A stretch of DNA of 64,000 bases from positions 32,001 to 96,000 of IMG/VR virus record IMGVR_UViG_2703718869_000013. One strand, 5' to 3'. The position numbers were made by a program, and so were the translations under genes. This DNA is from a virus (Duplodnaviria; Heunggongvirae; Uroviricota; Caudoviricetes). Under the pieces are notes generated by a model. It did not search any database, was not told where the DNA came from, and saw only the letters and a program-made list of their open reading frames with translations. Position 1 is the stretch's first letter, and each line of letters begins with the position of its first letter. Shown one piece after another: positions 4,338 through 11,606 of the stretch.

Positions 4338-5153
4338 ATGAGCAAAAACTTTTTTCAATCCGGGGCATTTTTGGGGAATGGACTGTCTCGTTTCGCTTTG
4401 AACTCTGATCCTGTGCAGCTGATGGAGTCCGCCCGAGCAAGCGCCGAACAGCCAACAGATCCGGTTATTAATAATAATCCGGAACCGGCGGCACAGACTA
4501 ACGATAACGTTCCATCTGATCCGGCTCCTGAGCAAATCCTGGAAGGGAAAGACGGTAAAGAATGGACCGTCGAACAGGCGCACCAGATGATTCTGGAAGC
4601 TGCAAATAGAAGTGCTATGCAGAATGCGTTGAGTGATGCGGCCGACGCCGTTTTCGCCTGGGCTGATAGCGGTGATCTGACTTTCGACTCCCTTGATGGT
4701 TTCGTTCAGGCTATCGCTGGTATCTCTGATGACGACGACTCCGAAGTTACAGAAGAACAGGACGATGCCTATAACGAAGCATGGGCAAATGTTGCTGACT
4801 TCCTCGCAGCATGCGGTGTAGATGATGACCTGATCGAAGCACTGGCTGACGATGAAGACGACGACGCAGCTGCTGATGTTGGTGCCTCTATCGCTGGTTT
4901 AGATAGCGACGACCGCGACGAACTGGAAGCGGCGTTTGTTGTTGCTGGCACTTCTGATGAAATGCTGACTGAAGCATTTAAGAAGGTTGTTCGTAATGGT
5001 GAGATCAAACTCATCCGTAAACGCCTGCGTAAAAAACGTCTGACTGCGGCTCAAAAATCGGCGCTGAAAAAAGCACGCCGTAAAGCCCAGACCGGCGCGG
5101 CAAAACTGGCCCGCAAAAAGTCAATGAAACTGCGCCGTAAGCGCCTTGGCTAA
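4338..5153 (+). CDS. Hypothetical virion-associated protein, acidic body with strongly basic K/R-rich C-terminal tail
   Basis: ORF with biased composition (D/E-rich middle, KRLRKKR-type tail); followed by hairpin terminator. Confidence 0.55.
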   Translation: MSKNFFQSGAFLGNGLSRFALNSDPVQLMESARASAEQPTDPVINNNPEPAAQTNDNVPSDPAPEQILEGKDGKEWTVEQAHQMILEAANRSAMQNALSDAADAVFAWADSGDLTFDSLDGFVQAIAGISDDDDSEVTEEQDDAYNEAWANVADFLAACGVDDDLIEALADDEDDDAAADVGASIAGLDSDDRDELEAAFVVAGTSDEMLTEAFKKVVRNGEIKLIRKRLRKKRLTAAQKSALKKARRKAQTGAAKLARKKSMKLRRKRLG

Positions 5154-5158
5154 AGGAG

Positions 5159-5182
5159 GAGGCCGGAGAACTCCGGCCTTTA
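5159..5182 (+). terminator. Hairpin GGCCGGAG-aa-CTCCGGCC followed by TTT
   Basis: Perfect 8-bp stem directly after stop at 5153. Confidence 0.5.
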
Positions 5183-5188
5183 ACTTGA

Positions 5189-5770
5189 ATGGCACCTATA
5201 CCTTATGGGGTTTACAGCCAGGCTGACGGTGTATCACCATTTCTGAAAGTTACTTTAACGAACTCTCAGTACCAGGTTACCGGATATATCAGCCAGGGAG
5301 CGGCAATGAACATGGCCCAGAATTGGGAAGCGCCGTTTACCGGTATGTCCATGGGATCTGTTTCTGGTGCTCTGGGTGGTTTTGTGCAAGTAGGTACTGA
5401 AACAACGTCGGTTGCCCGTTGGAATAGCTTAATGGTTTGGGAAGGGGGGACTCCGCCGACGTTCACGCTGCCTGTAACTTTCATTGCTTTGAACAATCCA
5501 TTCATTGAAGTTTCAGGCGCTATCGCCGCGTTGACAGCCATGATTAGCCCGGAACTAAAAGCGGCCAATGTTGGTGGTCGAATCCCGGAGCGCGTGACGC
5601 TAAACATTGGTCGCCGGATCAACATCACCGATGTCGCCATCCAGGACTTAAGTTTTGATCTCGATGCGCCAAGGGATAGTAATGGATATTTCCTGAAAAA
5701 CACCGTCAACCTCCAGTTGACCGGTTCTTCGATATATAACAGCTCCGATATTGTTCGGGCGTTCCAGTAA
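5189..5770 (+). CDS. Hypothetical structural-block protein
   Basis: 193-aa ORF in same orientation as flanking late genes; overlapping minus-strand ORF judged spurious. Confidence 0.55.
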   Translation: MAPIPYGVYSQADGVSPFLKVTLTNSQYQVTGYISQGAAMNMAQNWEAPFTGMSMGSVSGALGGFVQVGTETTSVARWNSLMVWEGGTPPTFTLPVTFIALNNPFIEVSGAIAALTAMISPELKAANVGGRIPERVTLNIGRRINITDVAIQDLSFDLDAPRDSNGYFLKNTVNLQLTGSSIYNSSDIVRAFQ

Positions 5771-5781
5771 AAGGATTTTAT

Positions 5782-6291
5782 ATGGGACACAATAACACTA
5801 AGGGAAACCGTAAATTTATTAAGGGCCGCTATACTGCCAACGCGGCCAAAGGCGAACGACTGGTATCTTCTGAATTCCAGCTCACTTTTGCAGGCCGTGA
5901 AGATATCAGCGTACTGGTTCGTACGTCGCAAATTCCTGAAATGACCCGCGAGGATGTGGAGGACTATGGTCCGAATGGTGTGAAGTTCAACCAGCACGGA
6001 CCAATTCGAAACTCTGGGGAAATCCAGGTCCAGTGCGTGGAGACTATCGAAGGCGATATTCTTCAGTTCATCAAGGATCGCATTGCGGCGAAGGACTATG
6101 TTGATATCACGATGGCTGCTACCCCTGAATCCAAATCTTCCGGGGTTAACGCTGTGACAAAAGCTGCTACAACAATTGAAATGTTGGACTGCAAAATCTA
6201 CAGTGATGCAATCGACTTTAGTACCGAAGATGTGACTGCCGCTGTGCGCCCGTCACTTCGTATCGTTTACAACTGGATTGAGTGGGATTAA
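5782..6291 (+). CDS. Hypothetical structural protein (baseplate or tube-like, by position)
   Basis: 169-aa ORF, tight spacing to previous gene, terminator downstream. Confidence 0.55.
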   Translation: MGHNNTKGNRKFIKGRYTANAAKGERLVSSEFQLTFAGREDISVLVRTSQIPEMTREDVEDYGPNGVKFNQHGPIRNSGEIQVQCVETIEGDILQFIKDRIAAKDYVDITMAATPESKSSGVNAVTKAATTIEMLDCKIYSDAIDFSTEDVTAAVRPSLRIVYNWIEWD

Positions 6292-6310
6292 GAGTCACCC
6301 CTTGTATTTT

Positions 6311-6334
6311 AAAGCTCCTACGGGAGCTTTTTTG
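6311..6334 (+). terminator. Rho-independent terminator (AAAGCTCC-tac-GGGAGCTTTTTT)
   Basis: GC stem plus T-run after stop at 6291. Confidence 0.7.
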
Positions 6335-6374
6335 TGCTTAAATTATGCCGGTATAGCGAAATTTTGAGCATATT

Positions 6375-6671
6375 ATGGAAATTGATTTTTCATACTCTCC
6401 TGAAACGATAGAACGAAGATTCGAAATAATTGGATGCAAAACTATTTCAGAGGAGCATTATTGGATTCTCTATGATGCCAATACATGGTTATGTGCCTTA
6501 GCAGAATGTCGGCCATCGTTATGTGCAGGGGAGGGAGGACTTCGACATAAGGTGCTGGCTACACTTGAAGTGAACACGTTACGATATTGGTGTGTCGAAA
6601 TACTTAGGGATAACAAAGAATTACATTTATTATTGCTGAATAAGTGTGCGCCTCTGCGCAGGAAAGCATAA
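6375..6671 (+). CDS. Hypothetical small protein
   Basis: 98-aa ORF in AT-rich segment, no clear Shine-Dalgarno; strong hairpin plus T-run downstream. Confidence 0.4.
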   Translation: MEIDFSYSPETIERRFEIIGCKTISEEHYWILYDANTWLCALAECRPSLCAGEGGLRHKVLATLEVNTLRYWCVEILRDNKELHLLLLNKCAPLRRKA

Positions 6672-6797
6672 GAAAACCCAACCGCCATACTGGAATTATC
6701 AGAAGAATATGTGCGGAAAGTTATAGCTAGCTATTGAAAAGCTAAAGTAGATCGGTTAGATTTACTTTACTCATCTACCATGCGTAGAAAGAGCGAT

Positions 6798-6838
6798 CGA
6801 ACCCGATACATAGCAATATGTGTCGGGTTCAGCTTTTT
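6798..6838 (+). terminator. Long imperfect hairpin followed by TTTTTT
   Basis: GAACCCGA..TCGGGTTC stem with inner ACATA/TATGT pairing then T6. Confidence 0.55.
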
Positions 6839-7317
6839 TATGTCCCAAGTGCTCTTTTTCTGCTTTGTTTGAGTGTTCTGATTTTACTGTCATAGGTTAC
6901 AACATAGGCTGTTTTGAGAAGCCAATAGTCTCTACGTGCGGATAGCACAACAACGTAGTTTTCACACTCGTTCCAGATTACCCACTCTTCAGTTGGTCCT
7001 CGTCTTTCAGACCAACATGATATATCGCAATGGTCATAATTCCTTATCATATGCGCGATCCAGCGGATCCGCTTACACCGTTCAAGATCTGGTATTCGTT
7101 CTTCTTCTATTTTTCCCTCTGATACTAAATGCCAAAATCCGAACTCTTTCCCATCATATTCCGGTGAATAACGTAATCGAACAGGGAGACCCTTAAACGT
7201 TATATTAGAGATTAAAATATCTTCTCTAACAACATCATATACATCGTCTATATACTCTTGCCAACTTCCATTGAAGTACAATAAATCTGGCATTTGAAGC
7301 ATCAGCGAGCCTCCCAC
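6838..7317 (-). CDS. Hypothetical protein, second gene of a two-gene operon next to the lytic replicon
   Basis: 159-aa ORF overlapping the upstream gene by 16 bp (7302-7317); no recognisable motifs. Confidence 0.55.
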   Translation of the reverse strand: MGGSLMLQMPDLLYFNGSWQEYIDDVYDVVREDILISNITFKGLPVRLRYSPEYDGKEFGFWHLVSEGKIEEERIPDLERCKRIRWIAHMIRNYDHCDISCWSERRGPTEEWVIWNECENYVVVLSARRDYWLLKTAYVVTYDSKIRTLKQSRKRALGT

Positions 7318-8006
7318 ACGAAAATATTAAATTTACTTTCTGTTGGAAGAGTGCTTTTTAGTAACTCCCTGTTTGTATGTGATTTTATCCTGTTTATGAC
7401 TTGGATTTTTCCCGCGTTGCTATTCATTCCTCGATGAACGTAGCCTAACGCACCAATGAAAAGATCCGTTAGCTGCAATTGTTGCACTTCATGAGATCGT
7501 ATATGTTGAATTCTGTTTATCGACTCATGATTGTAATCATAGCGATCATTGTGAAGAACTCCTCTTAATTTCTCAATTTTTTCAATACCTAAAGTATCTT
7601 TTATATCTAGGTAGATATTGTATGTGTTGTTACTTTCTATTATGTTTTTTAAGACATAAAAAAACATCTTATAATAGAAAGTATTATGATCTTGATGGAA
7701 TCGAGCATGGTCCAGTTGCTCTTTATCAGGAACAACAACACCTCTAAAGCGCAATGCTGGGTTGCTGAAGAAGTAATCTACGACCTCTAAGTAAAATTCA
7801 ACTTTGGACGCAGATACTTTAGTCCACTTGATTTCGAAATCAGGTTTTAAATTGTGTTTTAATTTTAATCCCTTGATGTCTCTAGCAATTTTTTTTGTGA
7901 TAGTGCCAGGACACCAAAGCGCACCCAATACCATGACTTTATTATGATCATTTAGTAGGTGACAGGATTCATCGCAGAATACATTAAATGTTCTTCGGTT
8001 CAACAT
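7302..8006 (-). CDS. Hypothetical protein with DUF3800-like features
   Basis: N-terminal FCDES motif and C-terminal QLQLTDLFIGAL motif resemble the DUF3800 signatures as I recall them; AT-rich codon usage. Confidence 0.45.
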   Translation of the reverse strand: MLNRRTFNVFCDESCHLLNDHNKVMVLGALWCPGTITKKIARDIKGLKLKHNLKPDFEIKWTKVSASKVEFYLEVVDYFFSNPALRFRGVVVPDKEQLDHARFHQDHNTFYYKMFFYVLKNIIESNNTYNIYLDIKDTLGIEKIEKLRGVLHNDRYDYNHESINRIQHIRSHEVQQLQLTDLFIGALGYVHRGMNSNAGKIQVINRIKSHTNRELLKSTLPTESKFNIFVWEAR

Positions 8007-8174
8007 GTTAACTCCACTTATTGTTAGGTAGAATTGTCCGTTAGTTGTTTATTAATTGCAATAATTGGACGTTCTGATTTGCTAACTACGTCATCTTACC
8101 AGGACGCCTATGAGTTTTCCTCATGGCAAACTAGAGGTGTTGAAAGTATGCATGGTTATAATTAGAGCAATCTA

Positions 8175-9020
8175 TCACCCTCTGAATCCTACCGGTATAC
8201 CCCATTGTTCGTTATCTTTATTTTTGGCTAATACCGCATTAAGAGCTTCGTTTACCGTCATGCAATGCGGTAGATTATCGAAGTTTGATATCCAGCCAAT
8301 ATCAGGAGAACGCTTGTTCTTCAGGTAAGCATATTTCCGCGCTGCCGCCTCTACTTTCTGCTTGAACTCATGTTTTTGAGCGCGTTTTTTGGATAACCGC
8401 AGATTGTCAGCCTTTGCTTTTGCTTCAGCGATCCATGAAGTCAATTTTTTGAGTCTGGTCGTTCCGGCACCGCCGGAAACTGATCTTTTTGTTTTTTTAA
8501 CTTGTGACTTCTTATTCTTTATTGCCACGTCATCCTGACAGGGGGAGGGGGTATCATTTTGACATGGGGGTGTGGATAAAAAATTAAATAAAGCCAATGT
8601 CTTAGCGAGAACAGCTTTAACCTTGGTTGCCGCTGAAGAGATCTTTAATTTGCTTTCAATCAGCGCATTTTTGGCTTGTTGTGCGAAGGCCAAAAAGGAT
8701 GGTGTAAACCGGTACAGGTTAGCGCGACGTTCACGGTGATCGCCGATAACAATCTCTACAGACAGAATTCCTTTGTTTACAGCTTCACGGAATGCACGAA
8801 CGACGGTTGATTGGCTATAACCAGTTTCTGCCGCGATCAGGCGGTGAGGCTTGTGAATGAAGTATTCACTGGTTGTTGCCGCTAGATTTGCACATTGCGA
8901 CAGGATATGCCCGGCGCTACGAGATAGACCGGAGTGTGTTACAAAGCAGGCCAATTCATAGCCAGAAAAAGTAAAATCGCTCATCGTTATACAGCTCAGG
9001 AAAGTGACTTTAGCCAGCAT
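8175..9020 (-). CDS. repL: Lytic replication protein RepL-like
   Basis: 281-aa ORF immediately downstream of kilA-like gene, same strand; size and position match the P1 kilA-repL lytic replicon. Confidence 0.6.
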   Translation of the reverse strand: MLAKVTFLSCITMSDFTFSGYELACFVTHSGLSRSAGHILSQCANLAATTSEYFIHKPHRLIAAETGYSQSTVVRAFREAVNKGILSVEIVIGDHRERRANLYRFTPSFLAFAQQAKNALIESKLKISSAATKVKAVLAKTLALFNFLSTPPCQNDTPSPCQDDVAIKNKKSQVKKTKRSVSGGAGTTRLKKLTSWIAEAKAKADNLRLSKKRAQKHEFKQKVEAAARKYAYLKNKRSPDIGWISNFDNLPHCMTVNEALNAVLAKNKDNEQWGIPVGFRG

Positions 9021-9049
9021 TACAATGCTGGTGGTTCTTACTACGTCTG

Positions 9050-9850
9050 TTAGCGCGTTGCCGCGACAGGTACCAGCACACCAGCATCAAGCAATCGCTT
9101 CATCAGCCACTGCTGACCTTTGCCGGTTATACGAGTCGTGAAAGAAATCCTGCTTCCATTGCTTGTATCGATCACGGTTTCTTTAAGGGTGAAATACCCA
9201 CGGGATATGTATTCTTGTTTGGGGACGTTCCTGCGTTCACCGGTTGCGATCAGAATTCCGTTATCACGCAACCAGGTGAAGAGATAGTTTTGGCCCAGGC
9301 CGAGCACTTTGGCATAGTTGCCGATTAGAACCCCGCTGGCGGTAGCAACGCGTTCGGCGAATTCGACTTTAGGCGCATCCATAAGCATTTTTTGCTCCAG
9401 CCGTTGCTTTTGCTCTGCCAGGTCGGCAGCCAAACGGAGAGCTTCAGGGAGACTCTGCGGAATAGCAGGTTGTAATCTTCCGGCTCGATAGTCGATAAAT
9501 GTCTGGTTTACCTTCAGCCGAAACGCGGGAGAAATCCAGCCTGCGTACTCCACAGCGAGCAATTCATGGGCAAACGTACCGCCGCCACGGCCTTCGAACG
9601 AAACTATGCAATTCTGCATAGTTTCTTTTTCAAGCTCTTCGATGAGCTGTTTAGCTGACAGCGTTCTTAGCCATTGAGCTGGCGCTTTATGGGCACCGAG
9701 TCCGCTCGCTCTGTGTAGAGCATTAAGGTTGTAACGGCCAGCGCGGTCGGTCGTAATTTCAACACCACAAATAACGGGCAGAGTGGTTGAAGGATCGACA
9801 TTTTGATGAAGGTTTGATATATTCATATCCGCATTGAATGTTTGTTGCAT
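9050..9850 (-). CDS. kilA: KilA-like protein (KilA-N domain plus KilAC/ANT C-terminal domain)
   Basis: N-terminal VICGVEITTDRAGRYNLNALHRASG block is KilA-N-like; C-terminal LPEALRLAADLAEQK..PKVEFAERV..GNYAKVLGL block shared with the four Ant proteins; C1-operator-like site upstream. Confidence 0.7.
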   Translation of the reverse strand: MQQTFNADMNISNLHQNVDPSTTLPVICGVEITTDRAGRYNLNALHRASGLGAHKAPAQWLRTLSAKQLIEELEKETMQNCIVSFEGRGGGTFAHELLAVEYAGWISPAFRLKVNQTFIDYRAGRLQPAIPQSLPEALRLAADLAEQKQRLEQKMLMDAPKVEFAERVATASGVLIGNYAKVLGLGQNYLFTWLRDNGILIATGERRNVPKQEYISRGYFTLKETVIDTSNGSRISFTTRITGKGQQWLMKRLLDAGVLVPVAATR

Positions 9851-9919
9851 TTTTTCTCCAAATTTGCATCAACCTTCAATCACCAGCTCGAAATGGTGAT
9901 TCTTTGCACTTAGAAAACG

Positions 9920-9936
9920 AAATTTATTAGAGCAAA
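9920..9936 (-). promoter_or_regulatory. C1-operator-like site upstream of kilA (Op53-like)
   Basis: 16/17 match to ATTGCTCTAATAAATTT on the minus strand. Confidence 0.65.
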
Positions 9937-9968
9937 TTTTTCTGACTCGATCCAGATCGGGTTGGACG

Positions 9969-9998
9969 ATCTGCTCAGAAACCTGCCAGTTTGCTGGC
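9969..9998 (+). terminator. Hairpin AACCTGCCAG-tttg-CTGGCAGGTT followed by T7 (plus-strand orientation)
   Basis: Perfect 10-bp stem; T-run only on plus strand, so orientation is opposite to flanking genes. Confidence 0.4.
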
Positions 9999-10014
9999 AG
10001 GTTTTTTTCTTTTG

Positions 10015-11058
10015 TTAACCTATTGCTACTGGTTTTAACAAACCAGCATCAAGTAGCTTGCGAGTTAACCACTGCTGGCCTTTACCCGTTAATTGGGGCG
10101 TCAGCCGTATCTGGTAGCCATTTTCATCATCCAGCACCACTTCTTTCACCGTGAAATACCCGGCGTTAATGTACTGCTGGCGCGGTACGTTTTTGCGCGC
10201 ACCAAAAGCCATGAGAATGCCGTTCTGGCGCAACCATGAGAAAAGGGCGTTTTGCTTAAGTCCAACGACCTTTGCAAAGTTCCCGATCAGGATTCCATTA
10301 GCCGCTGATACCCGGTCGGCAAAATCGACTTTAGGGGCTGCGGCCACCAGCTGTTGTTCCAACTGCATTTTCTGTTCTGCCAACTCGGCAGCCAGGCGTA
10401 GAGCTTCTGGTAATGTTTGGGGGATCGATGGGGTAGGGGAGTTTGCCTGCTGCAATTCTTCCAGTTTGTCGATCAGCGAACGGCGGACCGCTTTTGACTC
10501 GCGCGCGGCGACTCGCAAGGCTTGTTTGTAGGTCATGGTGATGACCTCAAAAGAGCGCCCAGCCCTTGTGCCATGGGATTTTGCACTTTTTGTGTAAAAT
10601 TCACCTTCAAGTTCATCGAGTATTTTTTCGATGAATTTATTGTTTCTAACCTCTGGTTCTCCACATAACTTGCGTGCCTCATTGACCATCTTCAACAATG
10701 TTTGGCTGTCGATTGTGTCTCCGGTGTTGGGGATGACATTCACGGCTGGTGTTGGCGTAGCTGACGTAACAGGTGCTGGTTTCTCAACATTCAAATTTTT
10801 ACCGGTCACTCTATGTGCCTCCTTTCTCATTTCTGCTGCCACCGTTGCGTAACGTAGACGTCCTTGTTCAATCAAATAATCCCTGATCTCGGCTATCAGT
10901 AGCCTGTTGATCACAGCCTTATCTGTTCGGGTATAAAAACGCCTGGTTATCATGAAATAGTTGGCAATTGCGCCGGGGATCTCCCGTGTCGGCATACAGG
11001 CAGTATGCAGGGCGATTGCTTCGGCTATGTCATTACGGGTGACGAGAGGTTTTTTCAT
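10015..11058 (-). CDS. ant: Antirepressor Ant (module A), KilAC/ANT C-terminal domain
   Basis: 347 aa; start overlaps icd stop; about 93% identical to Ant of module B by eye; C-terminal ANT domain shared with KilA. Confidence 0.8.
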   Translation of the reverse strand: MKKPLVTRNDIAEAIALHTACMPTREIPGAIANYFMITRRFYTRTDKAVINRLLIAEIRDYLIEQGRLRYATVAAEMRKEAHRVTGKNLNVEKPAPVTSATPTPAVNVIPNTGDTIDSQTLLKMVNEARKLCGEPEVRNNKFIEKILDELEGEFYTKSAKSHGTRAGRSFEVITMTYKQALRVAARESKAVRRSLIDKLEELQQANSPTPSIPQTLPEALRLAAELAEQKMQLEQQLVAAAPKVDFADRVSAANGILIGNFAKVVGLKQNALFSWLRQNGILMAFGARKNVPRQQYINAGYFTVKEVVLDDENGYQIRLTPQLTGKGQQWLTRKLLDAGLLKPVAIG

Positions 11059-11589: not shown

Positions 11590-11606
11590 AAATTTATTAG
11601 AGCATT
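11590..11606. promoter_or_regulatory. C1-operator-like site upstream of module A (Op51-like)
   Basis: 16/17 match to the operator 17-mer; adjacent TTGTGCA-ATAAA-TGCACAA palindrome. Confidence 0.6.

What the first reader, a model, noticed from the sequence alone, without database searches (positions are those of the whole stretch)
6838..8006. Two-gene overlapping operon with a DUF3800-like protein between the structural block and the lytic replicon
A 234-aa protein with FCDES near the N-terminus and QLQLTDLFIGAL near the C-terminus (DUF3800-like, by recall) is followed, with a 16-bp overlap, by a 159-aa protein with no recognisable motifs, both AT-rich and co-oriented with repL. These may correspond to the P1 replication-linked rlf genes of unknown function. 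Compact operons of this kind beside a replication module are candidate abortive-infection or replication-interference functions.
Basis: partly seen in the sequence, partly recalled or inferred. Interest (0 to 1): 0.45.

Follow-up and report, generated by a model that had tools for sequence, protein, structure and literature searches.

The report
P1 rlfA-rlfB: restriction-linked nuclease gene pair
The two overlapping genes are the long-known but uncharacterised rlfA and rlfB genes of phage P1; they are optional cargo that in other bacteria usually sits inside restriction-enzyme operons, so they are probably a nuclease-based conflict or defence module and not part of phage replication.

Summary
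Both ORFs lie on the minus strand. They are rlfA (7302-8006, 234 aa) and rlfB. The window is 99.9% identical to phage-plasmid JL22 and 97% to P1. rlfB most likely starts at the ATG at 7302, giving 154 aa and a TGATG junction, not the 16-nt overlap reported.

Both match PADLOC candidate system PDC-M04 (2e-95, 1e-51), which I found no test of.

In 80 loci from other bacteria:
- 79 keep the pair adjacent.
- None has repL.
- 44 have same-strand type I restriction genes, typically hsdM-hsdS-[pair]-hsdR.

Only about 20-23% of P1-like elements with a near-identical repL carry the pair. P1 CRISPRi scored it non-essential.

So the link to replication is positional. The best reading is a mobile, restriction-linked nuclease module (defence, abortive infection or exclusion). 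The mechanism is inferred, not shown. The genes are already known; interest is modest.

The parts
7302..8006 (-). rlfA (P7 rapA): 234-aa DUF3800 protein with an RNase H2-like fold. Conserved D12, E13, D134, D137, Q178 and D181.
6838..7302 (-). rlfB (P7 rapB): 154 aa from the ATG at 7302; the alternative GTG at 7317 would give 159 aa. It is an orphan family by sequence. The model has helices followed by a four-stranded sheet. Invariant residues are F56, H58, R69, D72, R75, C76, R78, W81 and R123.
7300..7315 (-). Translational-coupling junction: GGGAGG (7315-7310), a 7-nt spacer, then TGATG, in which the rlfA stop (7304-7302) and the rlfB start (7302-7300) share one base.
   Evidence: Read from the sequence. 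73 of 79 homologous loci have overlapping ORFs, 58 of them of the ATGA or 1-nt type.
8012..8017 (-). Shine-Dalgarno sequence GTGGAG, 5 nt upstream of the rlfA ATG.
   Evidence: Read from the sequence.
8155..8171 (-). C1 repressor operator (P1 'Orlf', formerly Op55), ATTGCTCTAATTATAAC, starting 4 nt after the repL stop codon.
   Evidence: P1 RefSeq annotation mapped onto the window. Perfect 11-nt operator core at 8161-8171. The core occurs 17 times in the window against 1.6 expected.
8033..8061 (-). Position of the weak predicted promoter PrlfA of the P1 annotation (TTGCAA, 17 nt, GACAAT). It is prediction only.
   Evidence: P1 annotation and sequence. It was not found by the consensus scan, which also finds no terminator between repL and rlfA.
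6799..6830 (.). 14-bp hairpin 8 nt after the rlfB stop. On the plus strand it is followed by a T-run and so terminates pmgF. It may also end the rlfAB transcript, which would make it bidirectional.
   Evidence: Terminator scan and sequence.

Best explanation
rlfA-rlfB is an optional, horizontally acquired two-gene nuclease module. It belongs to the family PADLOC lists as the untested defence candidate PDC-M04. It lies in a variable cargo slot between repL and the tail genes and is not a component of the P1 lytic replicon.

Shown here:
- The two genes form an obligate pair across many bacterial phyla, and their ORFs almost always overlap in a way consistent with translational coupling.
- RlfA has an RNase HII-like fold with a conserved D-E-D-D carboxylate set.
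- The pair's usual home is inside or directly after type I restriction-modification operons, on the same strand, typically as hsdM-hsdS-[rlfA-rlfB]-hsdR.

Inferred:
- The two proteins act as one complex in conflicts with invading DNA or phages (defence, abortive infection or exclusion).
- RlfA is a metal-dependent nuclease acting on RNA:DNA hybrids or structured nucleic acid.
- RlfB, with its invariant His and Arg cluster and a possible RelE/colicin D-like core, is either a second, RNA-directed nuclease or the regulator or sensor of RlfA.
- Because the pair occupies the same operon position as the anticodon nuclease gene prrC, the chromosomal versions may be a second line of defence tied to the state of the restriction enzyme.
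- In P1 the pair stands alone. It lies downstream of kilA-repL with a C1 operator and no terminator in between, so it is probably switched on with the early lytic genes. There it could exclude competitors or act on host or foreign nucleic acid during lytic growth.
For: Family membership: PDC-M04A 2.2e-95 and PDC-M04B 1.1e-51. PDC systems come from 'guilt by embedding' in BREX, DISARM and type I RM loci, and 145 of them were left untested (bioRxiv 10.1101/2024.01.29.577857).

Independent context analysis:
- 79 of 80 genome loci found with RlfB have an RlfA homologue directly upstream on the same strand; the eightieth is cut by a contig end. None of the 80 has RepL or KilA.
- 73 of 79 ORF junctions overlap.
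- 44 of 80 loci have type I RM genes on the same strand, 19 embedded and 25 adjacent. The pair often starts 3-28 nt after hsdS.
- Among 127 nearest-neighbour ORFs from 39 loci, the commonest families are type I methyltransferase (14) and type I restriction enzyme (11).
- Examples: hsdR-mazE-PIN-A-B-hsdM-hsdS; RhuM-A-B-SymE, and a copy in a P4-like satellite; hsdMS-RT-A-B-hsdR-pAgo.

Cargo status in P1:
- G+C is 34-37% against about 50% in the flanks.
- rlfA-rlfB-pmgF is a known variable region (PMC9603915; PMC6906374).
- repL is present in 517 of 5426 E. coli genomes, the pair in 121. In PLSDB the counts are 515 against 103.
- The slot holds hok/mok-like MokW or IS605 tnpB in other P1-like phages.
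- rlfA and rlfB were non-essential in a P1 CRISPRi screen (PMC10695390).

Regulation: C1 operator and no predicted terminator between repL and rlfA. The genes are induced with repL during P1vir infection (bioRxiv 10.64898/2025.12.28.696737).
Against: No anti-phage, toxic or exclusion phenotype has been measured for this family. 'PDC-M04' occurs in no searchable paper. Of the PDC candidates whose tests I read, some protected and some did not.

In P1 there is no type I RM next to the pair, so any restriction-linked mechanism cannot apply there as such. If the C1 operator really represses the pair in lysogens, it cannot protect the lysogen in the usual way.

Confidence: 0.6

Rival explanations
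1. Replication-linked function, the original P1 naming. RlfA would be an RNase H-like enzyme, helped by RlfB, that processes the transcript or R-loop at oriL inside repL and so assists RepL-driven lytic replication.
For: The pair lies immediately downstream of repL and is co-oriented with it. No terminator lies between them and a C1 operator is present. It is co-induced with repL. An RNase H2-like fold would suit primer or R-loop processing.
Against: None of 80 homologous loci has repL. Only about 20-23% of elements with a repL at least 95% identical carry the pair, and functional P1-like phages lack it. It was non-essential in CRISPRi. P1-derived vector segments listed in the P1 record end just before rlfA. 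The pair has a foreign G+C content.
Confidence: 0.07
2. Toxin-antitoxin or addiction module that stabilises the P1 plasmid prophage. RlfB would be a RelE/colicin D-like RNase toxin, neutralised by RlfA encoded upstream.
Against: RlfA has no DNA-binding antitoxin domain and keeps an intact catalytic set. The fold match is weak and seen by one method only. P1 already has phd-doc. Expression appears tied to the lytic programme. P1-like contigs keep an intact RlfA with a truncated RlfB, which says nothing about toxicity. This rival overlaps with abortive-infection versions of the main explanation.
Confidence: 0.15
3. Counter-defence or host take-over function used by P1 early in lytic growth, for example degrading host or defence-related nucleic acids.
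For: It lies in the C1-controlled early region and is induced on infection. Phages often carry nucleases for take-over.
Against: Chromosomal homologues are co-directional parts of host type I RM operons and defence islands. That points to working with host defences, not against them. Most P1-like phages do without the pair.
Confidence: 0.1

Closest known systems
Phage P1 rlfA/rlfB (P7 rapA/rapB)
   Same: 97-98.5% nucleotide identity, the same gene order kilA-repL-rlfA-rlfB-pmgF-bplB, and the same C1 operator. This is the same locus; the nearest record is phage-plasmid JL22 at 99.9%.
   Different: Nothing of substance. The names 'replication-linked' and the PHROG label 'replication protein' are positional guesses with no functional test behind them.
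PADLOC phage-defence candidate PDC-M04 (A and B)
   Same: Both proteins match the family HMMs at full length (2.2e-95, 1.1e-51), and the pair is adjacent, on one strand, in A-then-B order.
   Different: PDC-M04 was defined from copies embedded in restriction or BREX-type loci and has not been tested. The P1 copy stands alone on a phage-plasmid under the phage repressor network.
PrrC anticodon nuclease in the EcoprrI type I restriction locus
   Different: There is no sequence or domain relation: PrrC is an ABC-ATPase fused to a nuclease domain. This module has two proteins, one of them RNase H2-like. Latency, trigger and tRNA cleavage are untested here. That prrC lies between hsdS and hsdR is from my own knowledge.
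Other DUF3800 contexts: retron type VII, TPR-DUF3800 next to Cas12a2/Cas12a3, Csx32 of Cas13-associated loci, and DUF3800-associated RNA motifs
   Same: The same Pfam domain, the RNase H-like fold, the N-terminal DE motif, and recurrent linkage to immune systems (PMC7736814, PMC10910872, PMC13594972, bioRxiv 10.64898/2026.08.25.746378).
   Different: The partner here is the small RlfB protein, not a reverse transcriptase, TPR domain or Cas protein. RlfA keeps the QxxD motif that retron-linked copies lack. No DUF3800 RNA motif was found in the window or in 20 homologous loci. None of these DUF3800 proteins has a demonstrated activity in the papers read.
RNase HII / RNase H2A
   Different: 7-13% identity and no sequence-level hit to any solved structure. 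The substrate-recognition features of RNase H2 were not examined, and there is extra conserved Cys and His near the DE motif.

Membership tests
DUF3800 (Pfam PF12686) | Match to the family HMM above the gathering score | tested here: met
   53.1 bits against a cut-off of 21, E 7.6e-14, covering profile positions 1-148 of 149.
DUF3800 (Pfam PF12686) | N-terminal DE motif and C-terminal QxxD motif (as described in PMC7736814) | tested here: met
   D12-E13 and Q178-x-x-D181 are present in the window protein. They are conserved in 77-79 of 79 homologues.
DUF3800 (Pfam PF12686) | RNase H-like fold | tested here: met
PADLOC candidate system PDC-M04 | Both component HMMs matched, genes adjacent on one strand | tested here: met
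   PDC-M04A 2.2e-95 and PDC-M04B 1.1e-51. The ORFs overlap.
PADLOC candidate system PDC-M04 | Embedding in type I RM, BREX or DISARM loci, the basis on which candidates were chosen | tested here: not met
   The window copy lies between repL and pmgF/bplB with no hsd genes nearby. At family level the feature holds: 44 of 80 loci have same-strand type I RM genes.
PADLOC candidate system PDC-M04 | Protection against phage infection | not testable with these tools
   The source paper lists the 145 PDC systems as untested, and no paper in the library mentions PDC-M04.
P1 lytic replicon (repL/oriL accessory) | Co-inheritance with repL and a requirement for lytic growth | tested here: not met
   repL is in 517 E. 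coli genomes against 121 for the pair. None of 80 homologous loci has repL. CRISPRi scored the genes non-essential (PMC10695390).
RelE/ParE and colicin D-type (BECR-fold) RNase toxins, for RlfB | Shared fold | tested here: inconclusive
RelE/ParE and colicin D-type (BECR-fold) RNase toxins, for RlfB | Sequence-profile relation to a known toxin family | tested here: not met
   No Pfam hit for RlfB. There is no recurrent family among 150 representatives at E up to 1. The PDB profile search was empty. hhalign against RelE gave probability 0.2%.
Type II toxin-antitoxin module | Toxicity of one partner neutralised by the other, with a DNA-binding antitoxin | not testable with these tools
   Only the operon layout fits. 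RlfA carries no detected DNA-binding domain.

The most novel reading that the evidence does not exclude
rlfAB, and with it the whole PDC-M04 family (about 1,800 clusters of RlfB at 50% identity), is a new two-nuclease immune module that backs up restriction enzymes. The RNase H2-like RlfA would read a nucleic-acid signal of invasion or of a disabled restriction complex. It would then release or cooperate with RlfB, a divergent colicin D/RelE-like RNase, to stop translation, as PrrC does. P1 would have captured the module and wired it to its C1 repressor so that it fires during lytic development. That would make P1 a ready genetic model for the family.
Probability: 0.2. Interest if true: 0.6.

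Novelty: already known. Interest (0 to 1): 0.3.

Why it matters
P1 is one of the most used phages in genetics, yet rlfA and rlfB have carried a placeholder name since the genome was annotated. This work shows that the 'replication-linked' label is only positional. It also shows that the pair belongs to a widespread family embedded in restriction operons, which gives a concrete and cheap experiment: express or delete the pair in P1 or E. coli and challenge with phages.

A positive result would validate one of the untested PADLOC candidates. It would also give a first activity for a DUF3800 protein, a domain that recurs beside retrons and CRISPR effectors with no known function. A negative result would correct database labels such as 'replication protein' and 'oxidoreductase'.

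Tried and rejected
- DUF3800-associated structured RNAs: the Rfam scan of 5000-11000 at E up to 10 gave only chance-level hits. A gathering-threshold scan of 20 homologous loci gave only tRNAs.
- Sequence-level identity of RlfB: nothing came from Pfam, NCBIfam, the PDB sequence or profile searches, a Pfam scan of 150 family representatives, or hhalign against RelE.
- Gene fusions of RlfA and RlfB: two longer RlfB-family proteins have unrelated N-termini.
- Using natural truncations to decide which partner is toxic: P1-like contigs exist with an intact RlfA and a truncated RlfB. The truncated-RlfA cases had lost rlfB as well or were uninformative.
- Published tests: no paper mentions PDC-M04. 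The papers I read that tested PDC candidates covered other members. The Lobocka 2004 P1 genome paper could not be opened.
- A sigma-70 promoter for rlfA: the consensus scan finds none upstream of rlfA, so the P1-annotated PrlfA is weak and prediction only.

Full report
**1. What is in the sequence**

The window holds two minus-strand ORFs at the stated coordinates: 7302..8006 (234 aa) and 6838..7317 (159 aa from a GTG), sharing 16 nt. Upstream on the same strand are repL (8175..9020), kilA (9050..9850) and ant1. Downstream on the other strand are pmgF (6375..6671), bplB and the tail genes.

The stretch 6700-8200 is 99.9% identical to phage-plasmid JL22, 98.5% to P7 (rapA/rapB) and 97.2% to P1 (rlfA/rlfB). 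So the pair is the known rlfA-rlfB locus.

The second gene most likely starts at the ATG at 7302-7300, giving 154 aa:
- P1 is annotated that way.
- The PHROG profile aligns from residue 6.
- GGGAGG lies 7 nt upstream of this ATG, while the GTG has no ribosome-binding site.

The stop of rlfA and the start of rlfB then share one base (TGATG).

**2. Regulation signals**

A C1 operator (ATTGCTCTAATTATAAC, 8171-8155) starts 4 nt after the repL stop. P1 annotates it as Orlf/Op55. Its 11-nt core occurs 17 times in the window against 1.6 expected.

No terminator-like site lies between repL and rlfA. The only one in 6500-8400 is a hairpin at 6799-6830, just past the rlfB stop. The promoter that P1 annotates for rlfA is weak and prediction only.

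Transcription together with kilA-repL from the C1-controlled promoter is therefore plausible. A P1vir transcriptome preprint groups rlfA/B with repL among induced early replication genes. This part is inference.

**3. The proteins**

RlfA:
- It matches Pfam DUF3800 (53.1 bits, cut-off 21).
- D12, E13, D134, D137, Q178 and D181 are conserved in at least 77 of 79 homologues from very different bacteria. They sit at the elements where RNase H enzymes carry their carboxylates.
- It therefore looks like an active metal-dependent nuclease.
- No DUF3800 protein has a demonstrated activity in the papers I read.

RlfB:
- It has no Pfam or NCBIfam match and no sequence relative among solved structures.
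- Its model is confident (pLDDT 91).
- The invariant residues F56, H58, R69, D72, R75, C76, R78, W81 and R123 (80 of 80) suggest a binding or catalytic site.

**4. What the relatives say**

Both proteins match the PADLOC candidate PDC-M04. It is one of 145 systems proposed because they are embedded in restriction-type loci, and it was left untested.

I checked this independently. RlfB relatives number about 1,800 clusters at 50% identity. There are 477 hits in one-genome-per-species contigs across many phyla.

In the best 80 loci:
- 79 have an RlfA homologue directly upstream on the same strand, and the other is cut by a contig end.
- 73 of 79 junctions overlap.
- None has RepL or KilA.
- 44 have type I restriction genes on the same strand, 19 of them on both sides. 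The usual order is hsdM-hsdS-[pair]-hsdR, and the pair often begins 3-28 nt after hsdS.

A PADLOC and Pfam scan of the 127 nearest-neighbour ORFs from 39 loci gave type I methyltransferase (14) and restriction subunit (11) as the commonest families.

Individual loci show other defence-type settings:
- MazE-PIN beside the pair inside an hsd operon.
- RhuM and SymE neighbours, and a copy in a P4-like satellite.
- A reverse transcriptase and a pAgo in the same island.
- Prophage locations away from any fixed function.

**5. Is it part of the lytic replicon?**

The evidence says no.
- A repL at least 95% identical occurs in 517 of 5,426 complete E. coli genomes and 515 PLSDB plasmids. The pair occurs in 121 and 103 respectively.
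- Other P1-like phages carry small ORFs in the same slot, including a hok/mok-like gene, or an IS605 tnpB.
- Two comparative papers list rlfA-rlfB-pmgF as a variable, low-G+C region. I measured 34-37% G+C against about 50% in the flanks.
- A P1 CRISPRi screen scored rlfA and rlfB non-essential.
- Vector segments listed in the P1 record stop just before rlfA.

**6. Best explanation and limits**

The pair is mobile cargo of a restriction-linked nuclease family. Most likely the two proteins act together in conflicts with phages or other invading DNA.

If C1 keeps the pair off in lysogens, its role in P1 would be during lytic growth, not in protecting the lysogen. No phenotype exists for this family in the literature I could search.

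**7. Verdict**

The feature is already known and already flagged by a defence-prediction database. What this analysis adds:
- the quantitative case against a replication role;
- the strong same-strand linkage to type I restriction operons;
- the RNase H2-like assignment with conserved catalytic residues;
- a tentative fold for RlfB.

Interest is modest, but the question is directly testable in a classic model phage.

Noticed in passing
window 8161-8171, 9926-9936, 11596-11606 and 14 further sites: The C1-operator core ATTGCTCTAAT (up to 1 mismatch) occurs 17 times in the window against 1.6 expected. This traces the P1 repressor network, including the sites at the kilA promoter and at c4.
   Followed up: partly
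window 8175-9020 and 6838-7302: Database names are misleading. RefSeq often calls RepL a 'MarR family transcriptional regulator'. It calls RlfB an 'oxidoreductase' or leaves it unannotated. The PHROG label 'replication protein' for RlfB probably derives from P1's positional gene name.
   Followed up: partly
L126 3382-3537 (MH422554) and L090 2253-4357 (RCS47): In other P1-like phages the slot between repL and bplB holds a hok/mok-like gene (MokW), or an IS605-family tnpB plus a 198-aa ORF, in place of rlfA-rlfB-pmgF.
   Followed up: partly
L127 3183-14708: A metagenome contig carries hsdM/S, a reverse transcriptase, the DUF3800-RlfB pair, hsdR, a 325-aa ORF, a Piwi-domain Argonaute and a helicase in one co-directional block.
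   Followed up: no
L128 7001-8192: In a Serratia rubidaea lambdoid prophage the pair sits antisense between the DnaB-type replication genes and the Q antiterminator region, a typical moron position.
   Followed up: no
L106 and L107, about 8001-8246: Two P1-like viral contigs keep RlfA intact (100% identical) while the RlfB match ends after residue 82, so a full RlfB is not needed to tolerate rlfA in those elements.
   Followed up: partly
window 7302-8006 (RlfA residues 11-32): C11 and H16 are conserved across the 79-sequence genome-locus set. C15 and C32 are invariant among the 45 closer homologues. All four lie beside the DE motif and could form a metal or redox site.
   Followed up: no
window 6799-6830: A 14-bp hairpin lies between the convergent genes pmgF and rlfB. 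It has a T-run only on the pmgF side, so it may act as a bidirectional terminator.
   Followed up: no
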